Assembly (NCBI GenBank): GCA_030649165.1
Contig: JAUSGG010000015.1
Coordinates: 29,238-93,237 of the forward strand
DNA length: 64,000 nt
Reading direction: 5' to 3'
Origin: Armatimonadota bacterium
Lineage (GTDB): Bacteria; Armatimonadota; UBA5829; JAUSEB01
The number at the start of each line of letters is the position of its first letter. The stretch's first letter is position 1. Shown here one piece after another: positions 12,181 to 21,410 of this stretch. The notes below the pieces were generated by a model. The model was not told where the DNA came from and did not search any database. It was given only the letters and a program-made list of their open reading frames with translations. The translations under genes and the position numbers were made by a program.

Positions 12181-13767
12181 TCACCCGTCACCCATGCGGC
12201 TTTGTCGCGTCCAGATCAGCCCGGCAAATGACAAGACGACGCACAGGTACGCGAACCAGTCGCCGAGACGCGTATAGGGCGCTTGCCTCGTCAACGGTAC
12301 TATGTCGCGGTAGATGATCTTCTTCCTGAAAATCCCTGCCGAGTCGAGGACCCGGCCCCACGGATCGATCACGCTGGATATGCCCGTGGCCGCGCAGCGC
12401 GCCAGGAACCGCCGGTTCTCGACCGCCCGCAGCACGGACATAGCGTGGTGCTGCTCGGCAGCGGCCGTGCGTTTGAACCAGGCGTCGTTCGTCATTACTA
12501 CTAACACGTTCGCGCCTCGCTTCGCGAGTTGGCGCGAGATTTGCGGGAATATCGACTCGAAACAGATCATCACGCCCAGGTTGCCGAAATCCGCCCGCAG
12601 CGGCAGATAACCGGGTCCGGGAGCATAGTCGAAGTCCCTTATCTTGTACCGCGCCAGGAACGGCAGCCACTTTCTGCCAAACACCACTTCGCCGAACGGA
12701 ACGAGGTGCGCCTTGTAGTACTTTCCCACAAGGTCTCCGTGAGGAGAAAACAGAAATGCCCCGTTATACTCCCTCATCGCGTCGCCGGACGGGCCGGGAA
12801 CGATGTCCGAAGCCCCTACAAGCAAGTAGACTCTTGCCGCGCTCGCCAGATAGCCCAGCAGCCGGCGCGGTCCGCCCGGGCGGGAGAACTGGTCGGGTAT
12901 GGCGGTCTCAGGCCAGATGACCAGATCCGGGCGACGCTTCAGGGTCTCGGATGTAATAGTCACGTATTCGGCAATGGTTCGCGTCCTGTGCTCGTCCCAG
13001 GTCTGCCGAGGACGGACCTCCTGGTCCACGTTGCCCTGTATGATGGCGACTCGGACCGGCTTCCCGCTCGCCCGCCCGGCGCACAGGGCGAACGCGCCCC
13101 AGATGATCGCCGCGCATATCGCCGCGGCCACAAGGCCGGCCTGCGCGAGGGCCGTCCGGCGCGACAGTAGCAATTCAGCCAATGCGACGTTCGCCGCCGC
13201 GATCAAAAATGCAAGGCCCCACGGCCCGGTCACGCTGACGACTTGAATAACAGGAAGGTAGTTGACCTGCGACTGCGCCAGATTGCCCCAAGTGAACCCG
13301 AGGAGTCCAAGCGATCTGAGCCACTCGAACGCCGTCCAGACGGACGGAACGACAAGCAGCCTGAACCACGCCGAACGAGCGCGGAACGCCGGATACGCGA
13401 CTGCACAGAAGCCGACGAAAAACAAGGCCTGAAACAGAGCGAGCAGGACCCACGGCGCGTACCCGAAGATGGTTATCCAGTAGAGCAAGCCGCCGAAGAA
13501 AACCGCGCCCATCAAGAGCGTCGCGGCCAGACTTGTCCTGAAGGAGGATTTGCTGTACACGATGAAGATCGGCGCAAGCGCGACCCACGCAAGCGGCCAC
13601 AGGTTGAAGGGCGCAAATGCCGCTATCAACCCCCCGGCGGAAATCAAAGCCAGAAAGTAAGCAAGCGCGTTCACAACCAATACCCCAAAGGCGCTATAAT
13701 GTGTAGGGTTATAAGGGTCGCGAGGTTGTAGGTTTGTAGGTTTATGAGGTCTGTGAGGTTTAGACAC
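12181..13767 (-). CDS. lnt: Apolipoprotein N-acyltransferase
   Basis: N-terminal polytopic membrane domain plus a CN-hydrolase domain (VAIIQGN...WPETA...ICFESIFP). The N-terminus of the listed ORF overlaps the tandem octamer repeat, so the true start may be downstream. Confidence 0.75.
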   Translation of the reverse strand: MSKPHRPHKPTNLQPRDPYNPTHYSAFGVLVVNALAYFLALISAGGLIAAFAPFNLWPLAWVALAPIFIVYSKSSFRTSLAATLLMGAVFFGGLLYWITIFGYAPWVLLALFQALFFVGFCAVAYPAFRARSAWFRLLVVPSVWTAFEWLRSLGLLGFTWGNLAQSQVNYLPVIQVVSVTGPWGLAFLIAAANVALAELLLSRRTALAQAGLVAAAICAAIIWGAFALCAGRASGKPVRVAIIQGNVDQEVRPRQTWDEHRTRTIAEYVTITSETLKRRPDLVIWPETAIPDQFSRPGGPRRLLGYLASAARVYLLVGASDIVPGPSGDAMREYNGAFLFSPHGDLVGKYYKAHLVPFGEVVFGRKWLPFLARYKIRDFDYAPGPGYLPLRADFGNLGVMICFESIFPQISRQLAKRGANVLVVMTNDAWFKRTAAAEQHHAMSVLRAVENRRFLARCAATGISSVIDPWGRVLDSAGIFRKKIIYRDIVPLTRQAPYTRLGDWFAYLCVVLSFAGLIWTRQSRMGDG

Positions 13768-13821
13768 TCCTCAATACCCCGAAAACCTTAGAACCCTGAA
13801 ACCCTAGAACCCTGTAACCCT
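13711..13821. repeat. Inverted pair of tandem octamer arrays (TAGGGTTA/GTAGGTTT ... AACCCTGA/AACCCTAG) in a divergent intergenic region
   Basis: Read directly from sequence. The G-rich array on the left faces a C-rich array on the right. Confidence 0.7.
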
Positions 13822-14499
13822 ATGAGTCGTTTTCCCACAATAATGCTTGCCGTGTTCGCCGCGCTCGCGCTCACTGGATGCGCCCGCGCCCCCGCGGGCG
13901 GACCCGGCGCCGCGCGCAGACTGGTCATCGAGATGCGCGTCGCGGGCGTCATCAATCCCGACTATTTCTATTACGTCGCAATCGACAATGATGGTGACCC
14001 GAACGACGGTCCCCAAGCGGTCGTCGGCCCGCCCTGGGGCAACGGCTGGGGCGCCGGGGCGATTACCCATTACGTTCAGTTCGACACCAGCCTTCCGCAG
14101 GGCGGTTACGGCCTATTCAGGATACCCGATGCCGGTCTTTTGGGCAAGGTTTACCTCGGCCCGCCTGTCAACTTCATCACCCCCGGCCCCAGCGGCAACA
14201 CGCTCAGGTTCACGCTGGATCTGGACGATCTCGTAATCCCTCCGCAGACGGATGGAAACCAGATACAGACGCTTGAGATAAACTTCATTGCCACGGACGT
14301 GGTCCCCACCGACCCATCCTTCGTGGGCCCGCGGCAATGGGACGCGCTCGGGGACGGGAGCAGCAACGCGTTCCTGCGACTGAACGTTACCCCGGGGCAG
14401 TTCATTTCTAATGGCACGGAAGGACTGGAGCCGGACGGCGACGTCTTCCACCCCGATTTGGACATAGTGGACTGGTCGATAGAAGTGCAGCAACTATAA
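13822..14499 (+). CDS. Lipoprotein (signal peptide with lipobox LTGC), function unknown
   Basis: MSRFPTIMLAVFAALALTGC. Confidence 0.7.
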   Translation: MSRFPTIMLAVFAALALTGCARAPAGGPGAARRLVIEMRVAGVINPDYFYYVAIDNDGDPNDGPQAVVGPPWGNGWGAGAITHYVQFDTSLPQGGYGLFRIPDAGLLGKVYLGPPVNFITPGPSGNTLRFTLDLDDLVIPPQTDGNQIQTLEINFIATDVVPTDPSFVGPRQWDALGDGSSNAFLRLNVTPGQFISNGTEGLEPDGDVFHPDLDIVDWSIEVQQL

Positions 14500-14670
14500 G
14501 ATATTGAGTAAGAGTTCAGAAATGGAGAGAACTTTCACCCTCACCCCATTCGCTTCGCTCAGGGCAGGCTCTAACCCTCTCCCTCAAGGGAGAGGGGATT
14601 ACGCTCGCGTTCTCCCCGGGGGTCAGCAGCGAGAAGAGTCGTACCGACCCTTCCTGAACTGAGTACGATA

Positions 14671-14699
14671 TTGACAATCCTCCCCAATTCCCCTACAAT
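14671..14699 (+). promoter_or_regulatory. Sigma70-type promoter: TTGACA - 17 nt - TACAAT
   Basis: -35 at 14671-14676 and -10 at 14694-14699. It drives the downstream leader and the operon that starts at 14899. Confidence 0.65.
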
Positions 14700-14766
14700 T
14701 CCACTTGGCTGGTCGGCAAAAAAGCAATAGCAATCGCAGGAGAAACGCCATCCCAGCCCCTGAGGC

Positions 14767-14830
14767 GCCTGCTTATTCACGGTCTTGCCCTGTACGGCGG
14801 AGGTCGTGGATAAGCGGGCGTTTTGTTTTT
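14767..14830 (+). terminator. Leader terminator/attenuator (possible riboswitch expression platform) in the 5' UTR of the 14899 operon
   Basis: 11-bp stem CGCCTGCTTAT...ATAAGCGGGCG enclosing an inner hairpin, followed directly by TTTTGTTTTT. It lies between the promoter and the start codon. Confidence 0.6.
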
Positions 14831-14898
14831 GCAGTGAACAATTGAGCGTCCGGATGCATCATGCTATATGGACTGTCGGCAGGCGGGAGGTATCAAGT

Positions 14899-16482
14899 AT
14901 GTTCGGATTGCTGGGGAAAATCGTCAAAATAGAGAAGAAAGAGGAGAGCGGCCTCAGTCGTTTCGAGGTCAGCTTCAAGGCCGCCTGCACTCTGCCGACC
15001 AGGGCAGCCGTTCCTGAGTGGCTCAAAGACCAGGTTCTCAAGATAGACCGTGAGGTCGTCGATCCTCGTGAGCTTGGCAACCCGGGTGACAGCATTGTTC
15101 TGACGCCGTCGGAATCCGCGCGCTGGCTCTATCCGCTGACCGTTGCTCCGCAGACGGCTTACGGAGAATTGCCTGAAACTCTTCGGATCGACCTTCGCTG
15201 GTGGAAGAGCGACGACCCGCCCGAGTACGCGGTCCGCGCGAACGGCAGGCAGATCACCGGCAAGTTCACCAAGGAAGATGGAGAGTTCCTTGCTGACATT
15301 CGGACCGGGGACTTCTACACGTCGCAGCCGCGACTTCCGGTCTCTTTCCGGATAACGTGCGACAAAATGGCAGCAGCGTGCTCGGTCCTGCCGGACGACG
15401 GGCCGTTTTGGACGGAAATCCTGCCGCCGCGGGGCGAGCTTCACCGGCTTGAGAACGAGTGGTACGCCGTAGACGTCACCGCGAAAATGCACGCCGGAGG
15501 AGTCGTCGCCCTGTTCGAAAAAGGACGGCAGGTAGATCACTTCCGGTGTCCCGAAAACTTGATTCAGCCGACGTTGAAGAACGGGGGACATACAGATCGG
15601 CTCCTGCGCGGATGGGGATGGTACGACAAACTGAACGAAATCGCCATGACGTGCCACGGCGCCAGGCGTGAAGGAAACGCGACGAGCCTCCACCTCGACG
15701 GCGTTGTGGACGACGGACAGGGCATCAGGACTTCGGTGGCCTACACGGCCTTTGACGCCTTCCCGCTCATTACGCTTAAGCGAGAGTACCACGTACACAC
15801 CCTAAAGAAGGATGAGGCCAAGGACAAGGAGAAAGAAACCGCCCCCAAGGAACCAATAGACGAGGCCATGCCGCTCAAGCTTGTTTTTCGCGCGTCGTGG
15901 AGAGTCGAAGACAACGGCAAATCCGGAAGCCGGGCGCTGTGCCTTGACGGCGAGAAACTGGCCGTCATACGAACCGGCCAGACACAGGAGATCGCATTTG
16001 CCGGTGACTGGCGCATGCGCCAGGGTTGGGCTATCGTCGAACATCCGGCCCGTCGGGAATACACGATGTACTTGTTCGACGATCAGGCCCAGCCCAGCCT
16101 CTGCGTCTACCACGGCCCTTACGGCATCAGTCTGGAGCCGCATTGGCTGCCGGTTGTGCTGAAGCCCGGCGACTCGATAGGCTATACTCTCGGACTGACT
16201 GCCGGCGAACTCTGCGGCGCGAGTCCCGCGGGCGCGTGGGTAGCCTGCCGGACGCGGCTTTCCTCCGGCGGCGTGCGCTGCGGTGTCGTTGCGCGCGCAA
16301 ACGCCGGAGAAGAGAACGTTACTTTCAAAGTCGGAACAGCAGAACGCCGCATGAATCTAACGAAGCTGCTTGCGCCTGGGTTGGGCGAGGTATGCTGCGC
16401 TGTCGCCGATTTTCCTGACGCGACCATGGAGGACCATTTCGACGCCGTGGTCGCCGGCATTGAAGCCCGGAGGGGACTATGA
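14899..16482 (+). CDS. Hypothetical 527-aa cytoplasmic protein (no recognised domain)
   Basis: RBS GGGAGG is 8 nt upstream of the ATG at 14899. Its stop overlaps the next gene's ATG (ATGA). Confidence 0.65.
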   Translation: MFGLLGKIVKIEKKEESGLSRFEVSFKAACTLPTRAAVPEWLKDQVLKIDREVVDPRELGNPGDSIVLTPSESARWLYPLTVAPQTAYGELPETLRIDLRWWKSDDPPEYAVRANGRQITGKFTKEDGEFLADIRTGDFYTSQPRLPVSFRITCDKMAAACSVLPDDGPFWTEILPPRGELHRLENEWYAVDVTAKMHAGGVVALFEKGRQVDHFRCPENLIQPTLKNGGHTDRLLRGWGWYDKLNEIAMTCHGARREGNATSLHLDGVVDDGQGIRTSVAYTAFDAFPLITLKREYHVHTLKKDEAKDKEKETAPKEPIDEAMPLKLVFRASWRVEDNGKSGSRALCLDGEKLAVIRTGQTQEIAFAGDWRMRQGWAIVEHPARREYTMYLFDDQAQPSLCVYHGPYGISLEPHWLPVVLKPGDSIGYTLGLTAGELCGASPAGAWVACRTRLSSGGVRCGVVARANAGEENVTFKVGTAERRMNLTKLLAPGLGEVCCAVADFPDATMEDHFDAVVAGIEARRGL

Positions 16483-17699
16483 GCATATTTGAGCCACAAA
16501 CATACAGTGTTGACTGGGAATCGGCTGTAGTCGATAAGCTGGACCGATGCGTGGACTCGGAGAGGCTCACGGGCTTCGCCGGGATGCTCCACAAGGAGTT
16601 CGACCTCCCGATTCAGACCGACTGGAACGCGATTGAGTTCGCCCTTGGCGTGAACTCTTCGTTCGCTCAGTTGTGGGACCGGGTCCAGCAAGTTACGGAC
16701 CGGGCGTCGCAGGTGTTCCGAGAATATGATCTCGACATCTTCCCCCTGGGCTCGCATCCGACGGAGCCAATGTTCTTTGGCGCTCACGTCCACGTCGGCA
16801 CCATCCACGACGAGTCCGCGGCGATTCATCTCGCGAATTGCGTAACCCGATACTTACCGGCGTTTGCGGCGCTGGCGGCGAATTCGCCTGCGTCGCACGA
16901 GAGGAAGGGAGAGTTCAAGAGCTATCGCGTGCGACACAGCGCCCGCTGGGCGTCAACACCAACGTTCCCACGCGATCCGGAGGTGACCCAGGAGACGTGG
17001 GGGACGGACGTATTGCCGAAACTCTACGGCGCGCCTACGATCGAGATCCGCGTTATGGACAGCGCGTCCTCCCGCCGTCTTCTAGCGGAGATGGCTACGT
17101 TCGTCGCGGCGTTCGTTCACCACGTCGGAACCAGAATGGAGAAGCGCAATGTGACGAAGGATGAATACCGCGAATATCTCAATAACCGGTGGACCGCGGC
17201 GCGTTACGGCCTGCAAGCCACGTTTGCCTGGGATGGCAAACCCAGGCCGGTTACCGAGATTCTTGACGAGATGCTCGACTCTTGCGCCGCCGAGCTTCAG
17301 GCTCTGGGCGTGGACCGTTCGGATTTCGGAATGATCGACGCAATGCTGCGGAAGCGGGTCTGCCAGGCGGATTACCTGCGGGATCTCGTCGAGCGCTATC
17401 CCGATCCGTTCCAACTGGCCTCCGTTTGCGGCAAACTGCTTCGGCAGTGGGACATCTTCGACGAGTATCTCGATACCGCGCCGGCGCTTGAGCCGTGTCC
17501 GGCTTTGGATAATGAAACCATCCTGGCCGAGCATCTGGATTGGGTCGGCGACGGCACGCACTTCTACCACCTTAGGTACCCGATGTGGTATTCGCCGTCG
17601 TTATCCGATGAGCTTATCGCGCAAATGGTCGAGCGAGGACTGATCAGCCGGGAGGTCACGCCAAACCGCGGGACGCTTCTGCACCGAACCGACCGCTGA
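16479..17699 (+). CDS. Carboxylate-amine ligase, glutamate-cysteine ligase family 2 (YbdK-like)
   Basis: GCS2-type features including FGAHVHVG. Confidence 0.7.
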   Translation: MSIFEPQTYSVDWESAVVDKLDRCVDSERLTGFAGMLHKEFDLPIQTDWNAIEFALGVNSSFAQLWDRVQQVTDRASQVFREYDLDIFPLGSHPTEPMFFGAHVHVGTIHDESAAIHLANCVTRYLPAFAALAANSPASHERKGEFKSYRVRHSARWASTPTFPRDPEVTQETWGTDVLPKLYGAPTIEIRVMDSASSRRLLAEMATFVAAFVHHVGTRMEKRNVTKDEYREYLNNRWTAARYGLQATFAWDGKPRPVTEILDEMLDSCAAELQALGVDRSDFGMIDAMLRKRVCQADYLRDLVERYPDPFQLASVCGKLLRQWDIFDEYLDTAPALEPCPALDNETILAEHLDWVGDGTHFYHLRYPMWYSPSLSDELIAQMVERGLISREVTPNRGTLLHRTDR

Positions 17700-17711
17700 G
17701 AGGATGAAAAC

Positions 17712-18596
17712 GTGGCGAGTTCCACCATCATAGACACGTATCCGGCCTTTGCGCAGTTTTGGGGCCAGGCGAAGAATGAACCCGTAGATCGACAAATCGA
17801 TCTGTGGCTCCAGGATTATATGTCGCACTGGCCCGAGTTGGTGGAAAAGCAGATCAACTGCCATGCCGGTAGAGGTTACGACTGGCGGCAAGTGGCTCGG
17901 GAGCGCATTTTCCCATTTCTCGACCAACGGGAAGCAGGGATGGCTGATGCCCGGGAGAATCTTCTCCGCTGCGTCGCGCCGGTGGGACGCACAGCGCAGG
18001 AGGTCTTCGGCTCAGACCTCGACCTTGTGTTCGTCCTGTACGTCGGTATCGGCTGCGGGGCGGGCTGGGCGGCTTCGTATTCGGGCAAGCCCGCGGTCCT
18101 CTTCGGCCTGGAGAAGATAGCGAAGTTGAACTGGACCGCATTGGAGACCGTCGAGGCGCTTACCGCGCACGAACTGGGTCATATCCTCCACCTCCATTTG
18201 CGCGGAGAAGCCGGGGAACCTGAAGCCGCGGGAGATTTCGCCGCGCTCTACGGGGAAGGCGTCGCAAAGAGAAGCGAAGAGCTCATCCTCGGCGAAAGCC
18301 GTCACTATGAGACACTGTATCACAAGGACGATTGGCTCAAATGGTGCACGGACAACCGCGCCTGGCTGGCCGCTGAGTTTCTGAGGAAAGTAGATCAGGG
18401 CGAGCCGACAAACGTGTTCTTCGGCGACTGGTTCAAGGTGCGTGACCACAGCCAGTGCGGTTACTTCCTGGGACTTGAGGTAGTGCGGGCTTGGGAGGAA
18501 AACCTGAGTTTCCAAGCGATCGTTGTCATGCCACCAGACAAGGTGAATACGCGTGTTCGCGATACGCTGCAGGAAATGGCGGCGGAAGCATTGTAG
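17712..18596 (+). CDS. HExxH-motif protein (putative Zn-dependent peptidase/hydrolase, DUF2268-like)
   Basis: AHELGHILH motif. Otherwise unrecognised. Confidence 0.5.
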   Translation: MASSTIIDTYPAFAQFWGQAKNEPVDRQIDLWLQDYMSHWPELVEKQINCHAGRGYDWRQVARERIFPFLDQREAGMADARENLLRCVAPVGRTAQEVFGSDLDLVFVLYVGIGCGAGWAASYSGKPAVLFGLEKIAKLNWTALETVEALTAHELGHILHLHLRGEAGEPEAAGDFAALYGEGVAKRSEELILGESRHYETLYHKDDWLKWCTDNRAWLAAEFLRKVDQGEPTNVFFGDWFKVRDHSQCGYFLGLEVVRAWEENLSFQAIVVMPPDKVNTRVRDTLQEMAAEAL

Positions 18597-18634
18597 GAAG
18601 CATATAGGGTGAACGCAGGAGTTACGACAGGCAA

Positions 18635-19381
18635 ATGACACCTAAGCCGATTATCGCGGTCGCCACGGGATCGCACAGCATGTATACACCTCGGTCGGAA
18701 ACGCAGACCGTCTGGTCCGGCATCCCGCTCGACTATCTGAAGGCTCTGATCAGATCGGGAGGCGCGCCCATTCTCCTGCCGTACATTGCGGACAAGCAGG
18801 CGATACAGGCGGTATTAGAGTCCTCCGACGGTGTCCTTCTTCCCGGCGGCGGGGACGTGGTTTCGCTGGCGTACGGCGAAGAGCCACACCCCGCGAGCCA
18901 TTATCAAAACGCCATGAGAGATCAGATGGAGTTCGAGGTAATCCGCCTCGCCATCGAGATGGGACTCCCGATTCTCGGCATTTGCCGCGGACCGCAGGTT
19001 CTCAACGTCGCCCTCGGCGGAACGCTCGTACAGGACATTCCCTCCCAGGTTGAAGGCGCTTTGAAGCATTACTCCGAAGGACCGGCGCTGTTCCCCCTCC
19101 ATACGGTGGACATCGAGCCCGATTCCCTCCTCGCGCGCGTTCTCAATACCGATTCCCTCCCAGTCAATAGTTGGCACCACCAGGCGGTAAAAGACCTGGG
19201 TCGCGGCCTGCGCATCAATTGCCGAGCCAAAGACGGCGTTATCGAAGGCGTGGAATCCAGCGAAGGATTGCCGATACTCGCGGTGCAGTGTCACCCGGAG
19301 CAGATCGCGGAGACATATCCGCCTTTCCAGGCGTTGTTCGATTGGCTGGTAGCCGAAGCGGCGAAGCGCGTCGGGAAATGA
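18635..19381 (+). CDS. Gamma-glutamyl hydrolase, peptidase C26 / class-I glutamine amidotransferase-like (PuuD family)
   Basis: Catalytic Cys in GICRGPQ and His in QCHPE. The overall pattern matches gamma-glutamyl-GABA hydrolase-like proteins. Confidence 0.75.
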   Translation: MTPKPIIAVATGSHSMYTPRSETQTVWSGIPLDYLKALIRSGGAPILLPYIADKQAIQAVLESSDGVLLPGGGDVVSLAYGEEPHPASHYQNAMRDQMEFEVIRLAIEMGLPILGICRGPQVLNVALGGTLVQDIPSQVEGALKHYSEGPALFPLHTVDIEPDSLLARVLNTDSLPVNSWHHQAVKDLGRGLRINCRAKDGVIEGVESSEGLPILAVQCHPEQIAETYPPFQALFDWLVAEAAKRVGK

Positions 19382-19419
19382 TAACTGCGCCCCAAGTCCG
19401 GTTATGCGCTTCGGCAGCG

Positions 19420-19460
19420 CCACTGCCGCTCTGCTACCGAAGGATCGTGGGCTTTCTCAA
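19420..19460. repeat. 40-bp structured repeat, copy 1 (CTTCGGCAGCGCCACTGCCGCTCTGCTACCGAAGGATCG); second copy at 38391
   Basis: Near-identical sequence at two intergenic sites. It contains nested inverted repeats (CCTTCGG...CCGAAGG and CGGCAG...CTGCCG). Confidence 0.6.
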
Positions 19461-19649
19461 TCCACTTCTTTCCTCCAGATCGGCTCTGTCCATCACACTT
19501 CAACCCTCACCCCTACCCTCTCCCTTCCAGGGAGAGGGGGTTTCCGCCTTCGACTCCTCCGACTCCCTCGACTCTTCCGCCCCCCACACAGGAAATTCCC
19601 CATCCAGGGTATAAGACAACACTAGCCAACCGGCCACTCGGAGGACTGG

Positions 19650-21410
19650 ATGCTTCAGGCCCGACAATTAGTACACGCCCCGGCGGCCCTGCGACTCGCG
19701 CTGGCCCAGGTTAACTCGACCGTGGGCGATCTGGAAGGCAACGCCTCCAAGATCATCGAAACCATAGCGCGAGCGAAAGAGCAGAAGGCTGATCTCGTCG
19801 TCTTCCCCGAACTGGCTCTGACCGGCTACCCGCCCGAGGACCTGCTGCTCAAGCCGCACTTCACGGCCGACAATCTGACTCAGCTCCAGGCCATACTCTC
19901 TCACACCCGCGGAATAACGGTCGTGGTTGGATTCGTAGACGGCAACGCGGACATCTTCAACGCGGCGGCGGTCATCCACGATGGTGAGATTGTCGGCGTC
20001 CATCATAAGGTCTACCTCCCTACTTATGGCGTGTTCGACGAGGACCGTTATTTTCAGAGCGGCGACTCGCTCCAGGTTTTCAAGCTGAAAGAGGTTACTT
20101 TCGGCGTCAGCATTTGCGAGGACATCTGGCACCCGGACGGACCGCACAGGGCGCAGGCTCTTACAGGCGACGCCGAGCTGATAGTCAATATCAACGCATC
20201 GCCGTTTCACGCCGAAAAGTGGATGGGGAGAGAGCGAATGCTCGCCCTTCGAGCTTCGGACGACGAGGCCGTTATCGCTTACGTGAATATGGTCGGGGGA
20301 CAGGACGAACTGGTCTTCGACGGCCATTCGCTTGTGGTCGGCGCCAATGGGGAAATCTTGGCGCGGGGCAAATCGTTCGAGGAGGAGCTCATCTTCGTCG
20401 ATGTTGACATAGGCTCCGCGCTGCACAGCCGGCTCATCGATCCGAGGCGGAGGAAAGAGAAACTCGCGCTCCAGGCCCAGTGTCCTCCTGTCGAGACGAT
20501 AAAGCTGGATGCAGGCGCGGACGCGGCAAAGCCCAAGCTGCCCGTCAGGTACGTGAATCCGCCGGACAGACTCGAGGAGATTTACAGGGCGCTGGTCCTC
20601 GGTCTACGGGACTATGTCCACAAGAACGGCTTCACATGCGCTGTGCTGGGACTCAGCGGCGGAATAGACTCGGCCCTGACCGCGGCTATCGCTGTGGACG
20701 CGCTTGGGGCGGACGCGGTCACCGCCGTAAGTATGCCGTCTGAGATAACCTCATCGGAGAGCAAAGAAGATGCGGAATCGCTGGCGCGGAATCTCAACAT
20801 CGGGTTCCTGACGATCCCGATCCGCGAGATATTCGACGCCTACAAGTCAGCATTGAGCGGGTCCTTCGCTCACACAAAGGAGGACATAACCGAGGAGAAC
20901 CTGCAGGCGCGGGCGCGCGGCAACATCCTCATGGCCCTTTCCAACAAATTCGGATGGCTTGTGCTGACGACGGGTAACAAGAGCGAGATGGCCTGCGGCT
21001 ACGCCACGCTCTATGGGGACATGGCGGGCGGATTTGCAGTCATAAAGGATGTGCCGAAGACCCTGGTGTATGAGCTTGCTGAGTACAGGAATCTGGAGAG
21101 CGAGATCATCCCGCGCAGAATAATCGAGCGCGAGCCGACGGCGGAGCTTCGCCCGGGACAACGGGACATAGACACACTGCCGCCGTATTCCGTGCTCGAT
21201 CCCATCCTCCGGCTCTATGTCGAGGAAGATCGCAGCGTCGAGGAGATTGTCCGCACGGGATTTGACGCCGAAATAGTCAGAAAAGTCGCGCGGATGGTGG
21301 ACCGCAACGAATACAAAAGACGCCAGGCGCCGCCGGGGGTGAAGATAACACCCAAAGCGTTTGGCCGAGACCGCCGCCTGCCGATTACAAACAAGTACAG
21401 GGCGGAGTAG
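19650..21410 (+). CDS. nadE: Glutamine-dependent NAD+ synthetase (N-terminal nitrilase domain plus C-terminal NAD synthetase)
   Basis: CN-hydrolase motifs (VVFPELALTGY, ICEDIWHP) and PP-loop GLSGGIDSAL. RBS GGAGGA upstream. Confidence 0.9.
   Translation: MLQARQLVHAPAALRLALAQVNSTVGDLEGNASKIIETIARAKEQKADLVVFPELALTGYPPEDLLLKPHFTADNLTQLQAILSHTRGITVVVGFVDGNADIFNAAAVIHDGEIVGVHHKVYLPTYGVFDEDRYFQSGDSLQVFKLKEVTFGVSICEDIWHPDGPHRAQALTGDAELIVNINASPFHAEKWMGRERMLALRASDDEAVIAYVNMVGGQDELVFDGHSLVVGANGEILARGKSFEEELIFVDVDIGSALHSRLIDPRRRKEKLALQAQCPPVETIKLDAGADAAKPKLPVRYVNPPDRLEEIYRALVLGLRDYVHKNGFTCAVLGLSGGIDSALTAAIAVDALGADAVTAVSMPSEITSSESKEDAESLARNLNIGFLTIPIREIFDAYKSALSGSFAHTKEDITEENLQARARGNILMALSNKFGWLVLTTGNKSEMACGYATLYGDMAGGFAVIKDVPKTLVYELAEYRNLESEIIPRRIIEREPTAELRPGQRDIDTLPPYSVLDPILRLYVEEDRSVEEIVRTGFDAEIVRKVARMVDRNEYKRRQAPPGVKITPKAFGRDRRLPITNKYRAE

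What the first reader, a model, noticed from the sequence alone, without database searches (positions are those of the whole stretch)
14671..19381. Promoter plus leader-terminator controlled operon pairing a GCS2 (YbdK-like) ligase with a C26 gamma-glutamyl hydrolase and an HExxH protein: possible new gamma-glutamylation pathway
A textbook promoter (TTGACA-17-TACAAT) is followed by a roughly 190-nt leader. The leader contains an 11-bp stem (CGCCTGCTTAT/ATAAGCGGGCG) immediately followed by TTTTGTTTTT, an intrinsic terminator placed before the first gene, which implies attenuation or riboswitch control. The operon encodes an unknown 527-aa protein, a GCS2-family carboxylate-amine ligase (HVHVG), an HELGH metallohydrolase-like protein and a PuuD-like C26 hydrolase (Cys/His dyad). 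The genes are linked by an ATGA overlap and short gaps. A ligase plus a gamma-glutamyl hydrolase is the hallmark of gamma-glutamylation catabolic routes (Puu, Ipu, aniline), but those use GS-like ligases, not GCS2.
Basis: partly seen in the sequence, partly recalled or inferred. Interest (0 to 1): 0.75.

Follow-up and report, generated by a model that had tools for sequence, protein, structure and literature searches.

The report
Candidate riboswitch leader before ligase operon
A short, conserved RNA leader that no RNA database lists sits in front of an uncharacterised ligase/hydrolase gene cluster in Armatimonadota bacteria, and it looks like a new on/off switch that decides whether transcription stops before the genes.

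Summary
TTGACA-17-TACAAT is at 14671-14699. A terminator hairpin at 14762-14824 (about 28 bp, longer than the 11 bp reported) is followed by a U-tract, and four co-directional genes follow.

The leader is a conserved RNA. A covariance model built without the window recovers 14702-14775 (E about 1e-8). The same element lies directly upstream of the orthologous first gene in seven other Armatimonadota-type contigs, each time with a promoter 6-7 nt before it and a long terminator after it. Rfam 15 has no match.

Covariation supports a 6-bp P1. It also supports a 9-bp helix whose 3' strand is the base of the terminator's 5' arm, which makes it an antiterminator. P1 and this helix together have pseudoknot topology.

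The gene set is only partly conserved:
- The orphan 527-aa protein (galactose-mutarotase-like fold) and the divergent GCS2 ligase are adjacent in every readable locus.
- The C26 hydrolase follows in 15 of 21 loci.
- The HExxH gene, a gluzincin-fold peptidase, occurs in none.

Best reading: a new candidate riboswitch or attenuator controls a clade-specific carboxylate-amine ligase module. The chemistry is unresolved. Gamma-glutamyl "add then remove" is plausible. The EgtA/EgtC pair and a published ligase/GATase-like peptidase pairing are precedents, so the ligase-hydrolase pairing itself is not new.

The parts
14537..14597 (+). REP-like palindromic element (ACCCTCACCCC...CCCTCTCCC-loop-GGGAGAGGGG), upstream boundary of the unit
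   Evidence: Only two copies occur in the 64-kb window, and they bracket the operon. Probably an insulator or terminator for the upstream gene. It is not part of the regulatory RNA.
14671..14699 (+). Sigma-70-type promoter P1: TTGACA-17-TACAAT
   Evidence: A promoter at the equivalent position, 6-7 nt before the RNA motif, is present in L014, L016, L024, L032, L015 and L034.
14702..14775 (+). Conserved leader RNA motif (candidate aptamer plus antiterminator). P1 5' strand GGCTGG 14707-14712. A-rich joining region 14713-14735. Antiterminator 5' strand GCAGG 14736-14740, bulge AGAAA, then CGCC 14746-14749. P1 3' strand CCAGCC 14753-14758. Antiterminator 3' strand GGCGCCTGC 14764-14772.
   Evidence: CM R1, built without the window, hits here at 50.9 bits, E about 1e-8. 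R2 gives 68.5 bits. Pair counts are 114/114 cells paired with 3 compensatory pairs. RNAalifold finds P1 independently. There is no Rfam match.
14762..14830 (+). Intrinsic terminator: hairpin of about 28 bp (14762-14824) and U-tract TTTTGTTTTT (14821-14830). Its basal 5' arm is the antiterminator 3' strand.
   Evidence: -41.2 kcal/mol, z -6.3. Equivalent long hairpins with U-tracts occur in the 7 other motif loci. The base helix is 98.6% paired with 2 compensatory pairs.
14842..14871 (+). Possible weak proximal promoter (TTGAGC-17-TATATG) containing a TATA-like box (GCTATATGG, 14863-14871) that recurs 34-60 nt upstream of ORF1 in other loci
   Evidence: the box is seen in the window, L001, L003, L009, L014, L016, L017 and L026. 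Its function is not established. It is absent from the type-B leader loci.
14899..16482 (+). ORF1, 527 aa: orphan all-beta protein with a galactose-mutarotase-like supersandwich domain. Always paired with the ligase.
16479..17699 (+). ORF2, 406 aa: divergent GCS2/YbdK-family carboxylate-amine ligase. ATGA overlap with ORF1.
   Evidence: PF04107 at 48 bits. TIGR02050 at 102.7 bits, below its cut-off of 176. YbdK structures 1r8g and 1tt4 are the only PDB relatives. Invariant D12, E14, E53, H103, H105, E189 and R191 match the YbdK active-site motifs.
17712..18596 (+). ORF3, 294 aa: gluzincin-fold HExxH...E metallopeptidase-like protein. A lineage-specific insertion, not part of the conserved module.
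18635..19381 (+). ORF4, 248 aa: Peptidase C26 / class-I GATase-like gamma-glutamyl hydrolase (PuuD/SpuA-like)
   Evidence: PF07722 at 199 bits, full length. PuuD equivalog at 101 bits, below its cut-off of 266. Best PDB relatives are Lin1909 3fij, 7d4r and PuuD 6vtv. The GICRG and HPE motifs are visible in the sequence. It follows GCS2 in 15 of 21 loci.
19503..19539 (+). Second copy of the REP-like element, downstream boundary of the operon

Best explanation
Promoter P1 starts a transcript that begins, within a few nucleotides, with a conserved RNA element of about 70 nt.

The element can form two helices:
- P1, 6 bp: GGCUGG / CCAGCC.
- A 9-bp bulged helix: GCAGG-[bulge]-NGCC pairing with GGCN-CCUGC.

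The strands occur in the order P1-5', AT-5', P1-3', AT-3'. That is an H-type pseudoknot topology. An invariant A-rich joining strand (GAAAAAACCAUA-like) lies between P1-5' and AT-5'.

The 3' strand of the 9-bp helix is also the basal 9 nt of the 5' arm of a very long intrinsic terminator. The helix is therefore an antiterminator. Only the base of the terminator is contested, and the contiguous terminator stem should win by default. I therefore infer that the default state is termination about 75 nt before ORF1. I also infer that a bound effector, most likely a small molecule, stabilises the pseudoknot/antiterminator and lets RNA polymerase read into the operon. That would make it an ON switch. 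The opposite polarity (OFF) is not excluded.

The controlled module is a clade-specific pair, usually followed by a third gene:
- an orphan protein with a mutarotase-like fold;
- a divergent but catalytically intact GCS2 carboxylate-amine ligase, translationally coupled to it;
- usually a C26 gamma-glutamyl-amide hydrolase.

I infer that the ligase makes an amide, probably a gamma-glutamyl amide, on a substrate handled by ORF1, and that C26 later removes the acyl group. In this genome a gluzincin-type peptidase gene has been inserted between the ligase and the hydrolase.

What is shown: the elements, their conservation, the covariation, the synteny, the folds and the active-site conservation. 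What is inferred: ligand binding, switch polarity, substrate and pathway chemistry.
For: Leader RNA:
- The leader is conserved in 8 loci whose ORF1 proteins are only about 45-58% identical. A CM built without the window finds the window at 50.9 bits. There is no other copy in the 64-kb window or in about 320 kb of related loci.
- The promoter lies at a fixed distance of 6-7 nt from the motif, and a long terminator with a U-tract follows it, in all 8 loci.
- Pseudoknot/antiterminator model: 15 pairs, 114/114 cells paired, against 33-47% when the partners are slid. There are three pairs with compensatory changes: P1 G-C to A-U; AT C-G to U-A; AT C-G / U-G / U-A.
- RNAalifold predicts P1 and the terminator on its own MAFFT alignment.
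- The AT helix appears in the single-sequence MFE of 4 of 7 leaders, and partly in a fifth, when the terminator 3' arm is left out.
- In L032 and L015 the terminator ends only about 30 nt before the start codon, leaving no room for another promoter. The element must therefore be a 5' UTR there.
- Other clades carry different promoter-leader-terminator arrangements before the same gene: L012/L020, L013, L023 and L028/L029.
- No Rfam family matches.

Genes:
- ORF1-GCS2 adjacency holds in every locus, and C26 follows in 15 of 21.
- GCS2 active-site residues are invariant.
- The C26 match is full length.
Against: - There are only 8 sequences in two subgroups, so the compensatory changes amount to about 3-4 independent events.
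- The alignment used for the pair counts was made by hand to fit the model, with N as a gap placeholder.
- The folding energies of the aptamer part are no better than those of shuffled sequences (z about 0).
- A TATA-like box lies downstream of the terminator in the window and in several loci. It could be a second promoter, which would make the leader dispensable or a separate sRNA.
- About two thirds of related loci lack this motif.
- No ligand can be named.
- An alternative P1 extension that sequesters the AT 5' strand is possible in type-A leaders. That would reverse the polarity.
- The substrate and the role of ORF1 are unknown. C26 is missing from 6 of 21 loci and is not specifically linked to the leader.
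Confidence: 0.6

Rival explanations
1. The leader is a cis-acting attenuator, but a protein (an RNA-binding antiterminator, possibly a product of the operon) or another macromolecule reads it, not a small molecule. The terminator/antiterminator competition is the same. Only the effector differs.
For: The terminator/antiterminator architecture fits protein-dependent antitermination equally well. The motif is small and has few helices. No ligand is evident from the gene content.
Against: No RNA-binding regulator gene is conserved near the loci. The pattern of invariant unpaired nucleotides together with covarying helices, starting at the transcription start, is typical of aptamers. The motif is not the two-hairpin ANTAR or RAT type.
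Confidence: 0.2
2. Promoter P1, the motif and the terminator form an independent small-RNA gene of about 120 nt that merely neighbours the operon. The operon is then transcribed from its own proximal promoter at the TATA-like box (14842-14871).
For: A strong promoter and a very strong terminator delimit a discrete RNA of about 120 nt. A conserved TATA-like box sits 34-60 nt upstream of ORF1 in the window and in at least 7 other loci, including loci without the motif.
Against: The element is always immediately upstream of ORF1 on the same strand (8 of 8). In L032 and L015 the terminator is about 30 nt from the ATG, with only a Shine-Dalgarno sequence between them. The covarying helix competes with the terminator base, which implies conditional rather than constitutive termination.
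Confidence: 0.12
3. Enzyme-level rival: the C26 protein is not a product hydrolase. It is the glutaminase subunit of a glutamine-dependent amidotransferase, and the GCS2 ligase uses the released ammonia to amidate a carboxylate.
For: C26 belongs to the class-I GATase fold (PF00117, 56 bits). In L014 the gene after the ligase encodes a nitrilase-superfamily (CN_hydrolase) domain, the fold that serves as the glutaminase in NadE. Carboxylate-amine ligases include ammonia-using members (PMC2588565).
Against: The best matches are PuuD/SpuA-type gamma-glutamyl-amide hydrolases, not synthase-associated GATase subunits. C26 is absent from 6 of 21 loci, where no glutaminase replaces it in 4 of them.
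Confidence: 0.12
4. Enzyme-level rival: the ligase is an EgtA-like gamma-glutamylcysteine ligase that supplies a sulfur donor for a thiol or thio-metabolite. C26, or CN_hydrolase in some loci, plays the EgtC role of removing glutamate.
For: Characterised GCS2 enzymes make gamma-Glu-Cys (YbdK and EgtA; reference list; PMC5790434). In L014 and L016 the operon continues with proteins carrying an EgtB/SenA/OvoA-like FGE domain. In L014 that domain is fused to a CN_hydrolase amidase. GNAT genes recur in L003, L009, L016 and L031, and a PIG-L gene occurs in L031. These recall low-molecular-weight thiol pathways.
Against: The EgtB-like hits are partial and far below the family cut-offs (95 bits against 360). 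They occur in only 2 loci and not in the window. No EgtD- or EgtE-like genes are present. ORF1 has no counterpart in any thiol pathway.
Confidence: 0.12
5. The hairpin is simply the terminator of the upstream gene (13822-14499), and the promoter match is a chance occurrence.
For: The upstream gene is co-directional and has no other obvious terminator apart from the REP hairpin. An 11/12 promoter match is not very rare in 64 kb.
Against: The promoter, motif and terminator are conserved together in loci whose upstream genes are unrelated to each other. The hairpin lies 260 nt beyond the upstream stop codon and after a promoter.
Confidence: 0.02

Closest known systems
Transcriptional riboswitches with pseudoknotted aptamers and terminator/antiterminator expression platforms (for example the preQ1, SAM-II/V, fluoride and guanidine-III classes; named from my own knowledge)
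   Same: It is a 5'-UTR element that starts at the transcription start site. It is small (about 55-70 nt). It has covarying helices in an H-type arrangement, invariant A-rich single strands, and an intrinsic terminator with which one helix is mutually exclusive.
   Different: There is no sequence or structure match to any of the 4227 Rfam 15 families. The ligand is unknown. The long joining strand lies between P1-5' and the second helix. The terminator stem is unusually long (about 28 bp), and only its basal 9 nt are contested.
EgtA / EgtC of mycobacterial ergothioneine biosynthesis
   Same: A GCS2-type ligase installs a gamma-glutamyl amide, and a GATase-like amidohydrolase encoded in the same operon later removes the glutamate (PMC5790434). 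Two related loci even carry EgtB-like FGE-domain proteins.
   Different: The hydrolase here is a class-I C26 enzyme, not a class-II (Ntn) EgtC. The window has no EgtB, EgtD or EgtE. The ligase scores below all curated GCS2 subfamily cut-offs. The obligatory partner ORF1 has no Egt counterpart.
Puu / Ipu / aniline-type gamma-glutamylation catabolic pathways
   Same: There is a PuuD-like C26 gamma-glutamyl-amide hydrolase in an operon with an ATP-dependent amide-forming ligase.
   Different: The ligase is GCS2-like, not glutamine-synthetase-like. No oxidase or dehydrogenase acts between ligation and hydrolysis. C26 is dispensable in 6 of 21 loci.
'New CAL' family of Iyer, Burroughs and Aravind 2008 (GCS2-sized carboxylate-amine ligases next to a GATase-like thiol peptidase or an Aig2 gamma-glutamyl cyclotransferase)
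   Same: It shows the same pairing of a GCS2-like ligase with a GATase-like peptidase, predicted to make glutathione-like peptides or metabolites (PMC2588565).
   Different: That family was described in proteobacteria and firmicutes. No ORF1-like partner and no RNA leader were reported. Whether ORF2 belongs to that family was not tested here.
Galactose mutarotase / aldose-1-epimerase-like supersandwich proteins
   Different: Sequence identity is 14% or less. There is no Pfam Aldose_epim hit. Extra N- and C-terminal beta domains are present. The same fold also serves as a non-catalytic domain in glycosidases and in YidC. Catalytic residues were not assessed.

Membership tests
Intrinsic (Rho-independent) terminator | Stable G+C-rich stem-loop | tested here: met
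   Hairpin 14762-14824, -41.2 kcal/mol, z -6.3, 0 of 200 shuffles as stable.
Intrinsic (Rho-independent) terminator | U-tract immediately 3' of the stem | tested here: met
   TTTTGTTTTT at 14821-14830. U-tracts follow the equivalent hairpins in the 7 other loci, the weakest being L016 with UUUU.
Intrinsic (Rho-independent) terminator | Termination of transcription in vitro or in vivo | not testable with these tools
   Needs Term-seq or single-round transcription assays.
Riboswitch (metabolite-sensing cis-regulatory RNA) | Conserved structured element in the 5' UTR of a consistent gene set | tested here: met
   8 of 8 instances lie directly upstream of ORF1 on the same strand, and none is found elsewhere in about 380 kb searched.
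Riboswitch (metabolite-sensing cis-regulatory RNA) | Covariation supporting the secondary structure | tested here: inconclusive
   100% of 114 cells are paired and 3 pairs carry compensatory changes. RNAalifold supports P1. However, there are only 8 sequences in 2 subgroups, and the alignment was hand-fitted.
Riboswitch (metabolite-sensing cis-regulatory RNA) | Expression platform with mutually exclusive structures | tested here: met
   The antiterminator 3' strand is the basal 9 nt of the terminator 5' arm in all 8 sequences.
Riboswitch (metabolite-sensing cis-regulatory RNA) | Direct, selective binding of a small molecule | not testable with these tools
   Needs in-line probing or ITC. No candidate ligand has been identified.
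Any Rfam 15 family | Covariance-model match at or near the gathering score | tested here: not met
   Permissive E<=10 scans of the window, L014 and L032 leaders gave only chance hits to eukaryotic or hairpin families, far below their gathering scores.
GCS2 / YbdK carboxylate-amine ligase (ORF2) | Pfam PF04107 above its gathering score | tested here: met
   48.1 bits against a cut-off of 21, although only residues 97-159 align.
GCS2 / YbdK carboxylate-amine ligase (ORF2) | Curated subfamily or equivalog cut-offs (TIGR02050 and the NF0100xx glutamate-cysteine ligases) | tested here: not met
   Best is 102.7 bits against a cut-off of 176.4. All equivalogs fall far below their cut-offs.
GCS2 / YbdK carboxylate-amine ligase (ORF2) | Conserved metal/ATP-binding acidic residues, the HVHVG motif and the E-x-R-x-x-D motif | tested here: met
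   D12, E14, E53, H103, H105, E189, R191 and D194 are invariant in 31 homologues. The LEFA, HVHVG and EVRVMD segments align to the YbdK-type structure 1tt4.
GCS2 / YbdK carboxylate-amine ligase (ORF2) | Gamma-glutamyl:cysteine (or other) ligase activity | not testable with these tools
   Needs an enzyme assay.
Peptidase C26 / PuuD-like gamma-glutamyl hydrolase (ORF4) | Full-length PF07722 match | tested here: met
   199 bits, profile positions 1-219 of 219.
Peptidase C26 / PuuD-like gamma-glutamyl hydrolase (ORF4) | PuuD equivalog (NF008471) cut-off | tested here: not met
   101.1 bits against a cut-off of 266. It is a family member but not a PuuD orthologue.
Peptidase C26 / PuuD-like gamma-glutamyl hydrolase (ORF4) | Cys nucleophile and His-x-Glu of the class-I GATase triad | tested here: met
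   The G-I-C-R-G and Q-C-H-P-E motifs are read directly in the translation. This was not checked by structural superposition.
Puu/Ipu-type gamma-glutamylation catabolic pathway | Glutamine-synthetase-like gamma-glutamyl ligase | tested here: not met
   The ligase is GCS2-type.
Puu/Ipu-type gamma-glutamylation catabolic pathway | Oxidase or dehydrogenase acting on the gamma-glutamylated intermediate, encoded in the cluster | tested here: not met
   None is present in the window operon or among the conserved neighbours.
Ergothioneine-type (Egt) pathway | EgtB sulfoxide synthase and EgtD methyltransferase in the cluster | tested here: not met
   Absent from the window. Partial EgtB-like FGE domains occur only in L014 and L016, at 94-95 bits against a cut-off of 360.
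Gluzincin metallopeptidase (ORF3) | HExxH plus a downstream Glu ligand, and a thermolysin-like fold | tested here: met
Pfam DUF2268 (ORF3) | Score above the gathering threshold | tested here: not met
   18.3 bits against a cut-off of 23.6.
Aldose 1-epimerase (ORF1) | Mutarotase supersandwich fold | tested here: met
Aldose 1-epimerase (ORF1) | Sequence-family match and catalytic His/Glu residues | tested here: not met
   No Pfam or NCBIfam hit. Catalytic residues were not examined.

The most novel reading that the evidence does not exclude
The leader is a new riboswitch class. It would be a pseudoknotted ON switch whose second helix is itself the antiterminator. It would sense the substrate or product of a previously unknown pathway in Armatimonadota, built on an orphan mutarotase-fold protein and a divergent GCS2 ligase. 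Identifying its ligand would reveal both a new RNA-ligand pair and the chemistry of the pathway.
Probability: 0.35. Interest if true: 0.8.

Novelty: new variant of a known kind. Interest (0 to 1): 0.66.

Why it matters
If the leader binds a metabolite, it adds a riboswitch class from a barely studied phylum. It also gives a direct experimental handle, ligand screening against a 70-nt RNA, on the function of an orphan gene pair that homology cannot annotate.

It would also show a compact design in which one pseudoknot helix of the aptamer competes only with the base of an over-long terminator.

If no small molecule is involved, it remains a clean, comparatively supported example of conditional termination in Armatimonadota, where almost nothing is known about gene regulation.

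The enzyme module extends the "attach an acyl/glutamyl handle, then remove it" logic to a GCS2 ligase with a new obligatory partner.

Tried and rejected
- Rfam at permissive thresholds on three leaders gave nothing real.
- PADLOC on all four proteins gave no hit, so this is not a known defence system.
- The small P2 hairpin (GCA...UGC) that I first put in model R1 is not maintained in the window or in L034, so I dropped it.
- Short ORFs in or near leaders:
  - The 42-aa genes called in L031 and L035 are unrelated to each other.
  - The ATG that starts in the motif of L014 and L016 is absent from the window and L024. The conservation is therefore at the RNA level.
- P0302 looked like an ORF1-GCS2 fusion. 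Its ligase part is garbled exactly where HVHVG should be, so it is a frameshifted sequence and not Rosetta-stone evidence.
- A scan of viral contigs for the motif core gave 11 pattern hits. The best CM score was only 20.9 bits, which I treat as chance.
- Folding energy of the aptamer part against shuffles was uninformative.
- The afdb50 fold library was unavailable.
- ORF3 as recent horizontal transfer: its GC and GC3 match its neighbours, so there is no compositional support.
- Literature searches for GCS2 + C26, and for riboswitch + Armatimonadetes, returned no papers.
I therefore could not scan public collections directly with the RNA pattern.

Full report
**1. What is in the window**

The region carries four co-directional genes:
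- ORF1, 14899-16482, 527 aa.
- ORF2, 16479-17699, 406 aa. It overlaps ORF1 by ATGA.
- ORF3, 17712-18596, 294 aa, 12 nt after ORF2.
- ORF4, 18635-19381, 248 aa, 38 nt after ORF3.

Pfam gives the following:
- ORF1: no hit.
- ORF2: GCS2, 48 bits.
- ORF3: a sub-threshold DUF2268 match.
- ORF4: a full-length Peptidase_C26 match, 199 bits.

The promoter TTGACA-17-TACAAT lies at 14671-14699 and is the only such site in 13500-20000.

Its energy is -41.2 kcal/mol with z = -6.3. TTTTGTTTTT follows it directly.

The proteins are identical to entries from an Armatimonadota metagenome-assembled genome.

**2. The leader is a conserved RNA**

I fetched 30-odd related loci through the ORF1 and GCS2 homologues. 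The 350 nt upstream of ORF1 are mostly not alignable between loci. In several loci, however, a block is nearly identical to the window's leader.

A covariance model built from five of these, without the window, recovers window 14702-14775 at 50.9 bits (E about 1e-8). It also finds further copies in L015 and L034. A second model built from all eight finds the same eight and nothing else in about 320 kb, including the whole 64-kb window.

All eight copies lie directly upstream of ORF1 on the same strand. In the seven loci that are complete at the 5' end, a TTGAC(A/G)-17/18-TAnnnT promoter ends 6-7 nt before the element, so the RNA starts essentially at its first helix. In all eight, a long hairpin plus U-tract follows.

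The ORF1 proteins of these loci are only about 45-58% identical to the window's. Non-coding conservation at this level is therefore striking.

Rfam 15, searched permissively on three leaders, has no matching family. Literature searches found nothing.

**3. Structure of the leader**

Two subtypes exist. Type A comprises the window, L014, L016 and L024. Type B comprises L032, L015, L034 and L018.

*Helix P1.* P1 is GGCUGG/CCAGCC in type A and GGUUGA/UCAGCC in type B. That is one C-G to U-G change and one G-C to A-U double change. RNAalifold finds P1 on its own alignment.

*Second helix.* It pairs GCAGG-[bulge of 2-5 nt]-NGCC with GGCN-CCUGC. It forms fully in all eight sequences and covaries at two positions:
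- The terminal pair is C-G in type A and U-A in type B.
- Another pair is C-G (window and type B), U-G (L014, L024) or U-A (L016).

*Pair counts.* I counted pairs on a hand-made alignment in which N stands for a gap. All 114 cells are paired and three pairs carry changes on both sides. Slid controls give 33-47% paired.

*Antiterminator.* The 3' strand of the second helix is the basal 9 nt of the terminator's 5' arm. That base helix also covaries with the terminator's 3' arm. The second helix is therefore an antiterminator.

*Topology.* The strand order is P1-5', AT-5', P1-3', AT-3', which is an H-type pseudoknot topology. An invariant A-rich strand lies between P1-5' and AT-5'.

*Limits of this evidence.*
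- There are only eight sequences in two subgroups, so about 3-4 independent events.
- My alignment was fitted to the model.
- The folding energy of the aptamer part is no better than that of shuffles, which is expected for pseudoknots but gives no support.
- In type-A leaders a short P1 extension could sequester the AT 5' strand instead.

**4. How it most likely works**

Only the base of a very long terminator is contested, and a contiguous stem should displace a bulged 9-bp helix. I therefore infer that termination is the default, and that an effector which stabilises the pseudoknot/antiterminator permits read-through (an ON switch). The reverse polarity cannot be excluded.

The effector could be a small molecule. 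I favour this because invariant unpaired nucleotides, covarying helices and a start at +1 are together typical of aptamers. It could also be a protein, but no conserved RNA-binding regulator gene is nearby.

The stand-alone sRNA reading gets some support from a TATA-like box (GCTATATGG, 14863-14871) that recurs 34-60 nt upstream of ORF1 in at least eight loci. Against it, in L032 and L015 the terminator ends about 30 nt before the ATG, with only a Shine-Dalgarno sequence between.

Other clades place different promoter-leader-terminator units before the same gene: L012/L020, L013, L023 and L028/L029. This suggests that conditional termination is a recurrent way of controlling this operon.

**5. 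The genes**

*Synteny.*
- ORF1 and GCS2 are adjacent, often overlapping, in every readable locus.
- C26 follows within 1 kb in 15 of 21 distinct loci that have enough downstream sequence.
- ORF3 occurs in none.

*ORF2.* It is a divergent GCS2. It scores above the Pfam threshold but below every curated NCBIfam cut-off. It keeps the acidic, HVHVG and EVRVMD-type motifs of YbdK.

*ORF4.* It is closest to Lin1909 and to SpuA/PuuD-type hydrolases.

*Loci without C26.* The next genes encode one of the following:
- a GNAT;
- a SAM methyltransferase;
- an ATP-grasp-like protein;
- in L014 and L016, proteins with an EgtB/SenA-like FGE domain. In L014 that domain is fused to a CN_hydrolase amidase.

The leader travels with ORF1-GCS2, not with C26.

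**6. Comparison with known systems**

The RNA works like a transcriptional riboswitch or attenuator but belongs to no described family.

The enzyme pairing is not unprecedented:
- EgtA (a GCS2-type ligase, from my own knowledge) and EgtC install and then remove a gamma-glutamyl group within one operon (PMC5790434).
- Iyer et al. described a GCS2-sized ligase family next to a GATase-like thiol peptidase (PMC2588565).

It is not a Puu/Ipu-type pathway, because there is no GS-like ligase and no oxidoreductase. It is not an Egt cluster, because the window has no EgtB, EgtD or EgtE.

My working mechanism is amide (probably gamma-glutamyl) ligation on a substrate bound by ORF1, followed by C26 hydrolysis. 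This is an inference with low confidence. A glutamine-amidotransferase reading and a gamma-Glu-Cys/thiol reading remain open.

**7. Verdict**

The regulatory interpretation is supported and sharpened to a new candidate riboswitch/antiterminator. The four-gene "pathway" shrinks to a two-to-three-gene core, and its claimed uniqueness is overstated.

Novelty: a new variant of a known kind.

Interest: about 0.66, driven by the RNA element and the orphan ORF1-ligase pair.

Noticed in passing
window 14537-14597 and 19503-19539: A REP-like element (ACCCTCACCCC...CCCTCTCCC-loop-GGGAGAGGGG) occurs exactly twice in the 64-kb window, both copies in the same orientation, and the two copies bracket the four-gene operon. 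L024 carries a reverse copy between the leader terminator and ORF1. It could be an insulator or terminator element, or a trace of cassette mobility.
   Followed up: partly
window 14863-14871; L001, L003, L009, L014, L016, L017, L026 at -34 to -60 from the ORF1 ATG: A conserved TATA-like box, c(T/G)ATATAGGA, lies upstream of ORF1 in many loci, including loci that lack the leader motif. It may be the -10 of a proximal promoter or a regulator-binding site. In the window it is preceded by TTGAGC at a 17-nt spacing.
   Followed up: partly
L012 1750-2070 (= L020), L013 4735-5063, L023 3465-3797: A different leader type precedes ORF1 here. It has a consensus promoter, a Shine-Dalgarno sequence, a 19-aa ORF (MSMRDPIRDLVSRLGPGHR / MSLPIRANVVVSRPGRSHY) and then a terminator. 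The 3' part of the short ORF is complementary to the terminator's 5' arm, which suggests a leader-peptide attenuator.
   Followed up: partly
L028 5780-5900 (= L029): A third arrangement occurs here: promoter TTGACT-17-TAACAT, a short leader and a terminator (GAGAGAGAATAAACA...TGTTTATTCTCACTC-TTTTTT) about 115 nt upstream of ORF1, with yet another sequence.
   Followed up: no
L014 7496-9847; L016 9827-12710: Directly after the GCS2 gene, L014 encodes a 783-aa fusion of a CN_hydrolase amidase and an EgtB/SenA/OvoA-like FGE-sulfatase domain. L016 encodes a GNAT followed by a 605-aa protein with the same FGE domain. This hints at thiol or sulfoxide-synthase chemistry in some versions of the cluster.
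   Followed up: partly
L003 7227-7784, L009 9743-10270, L016 9827-10372, L031 5063-5575 and 414-1172: GNAT acetyltransferase genes recur inside or next to the operon in four loci, and a PIG-L deacetylase gene lies just upstream in L031. This combination recalls mycothiol/bacillithiol-type pathways.
   Followed up: no
window 19650-21410; L005 2919-4385: NAD-related genes flank the cluster in two loci: glutamine-dependent NadE downstream in the window, and NAPRTase upstream in L005. With only two cases this may be coincidence.
   Followed up: no
window 13822-14499: The co-directional upstream gene encodes a 225-aa protein with a lipoprotein-like N-terminus (LTGCARAP) and no Pfam or NCBIfam match.
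   Followed up: no
protein P0302 (770 aa): This is an apparent ORF1-GCS2 fusion protein in the representative library. Its ligase part is scrambled where HVHVG should be, so it is most likely a frameshifted assembly and not a true fusion.
   Followed up: yes
window 17712-18596 (ORF3) and its homologues P0183-P0301: ORF3 belongs to a sizeable, unannotated family (more than 400 clusters) of cytoplasmic gluzincin-fold HExxH...E proteins of about 290 aa, common in Anaerolineae/Chloroflexi. In the one homologue context I read, it sits next to an Rce1-like CPBP protease gene. The family has no Pfam model.
   Followed up: partly
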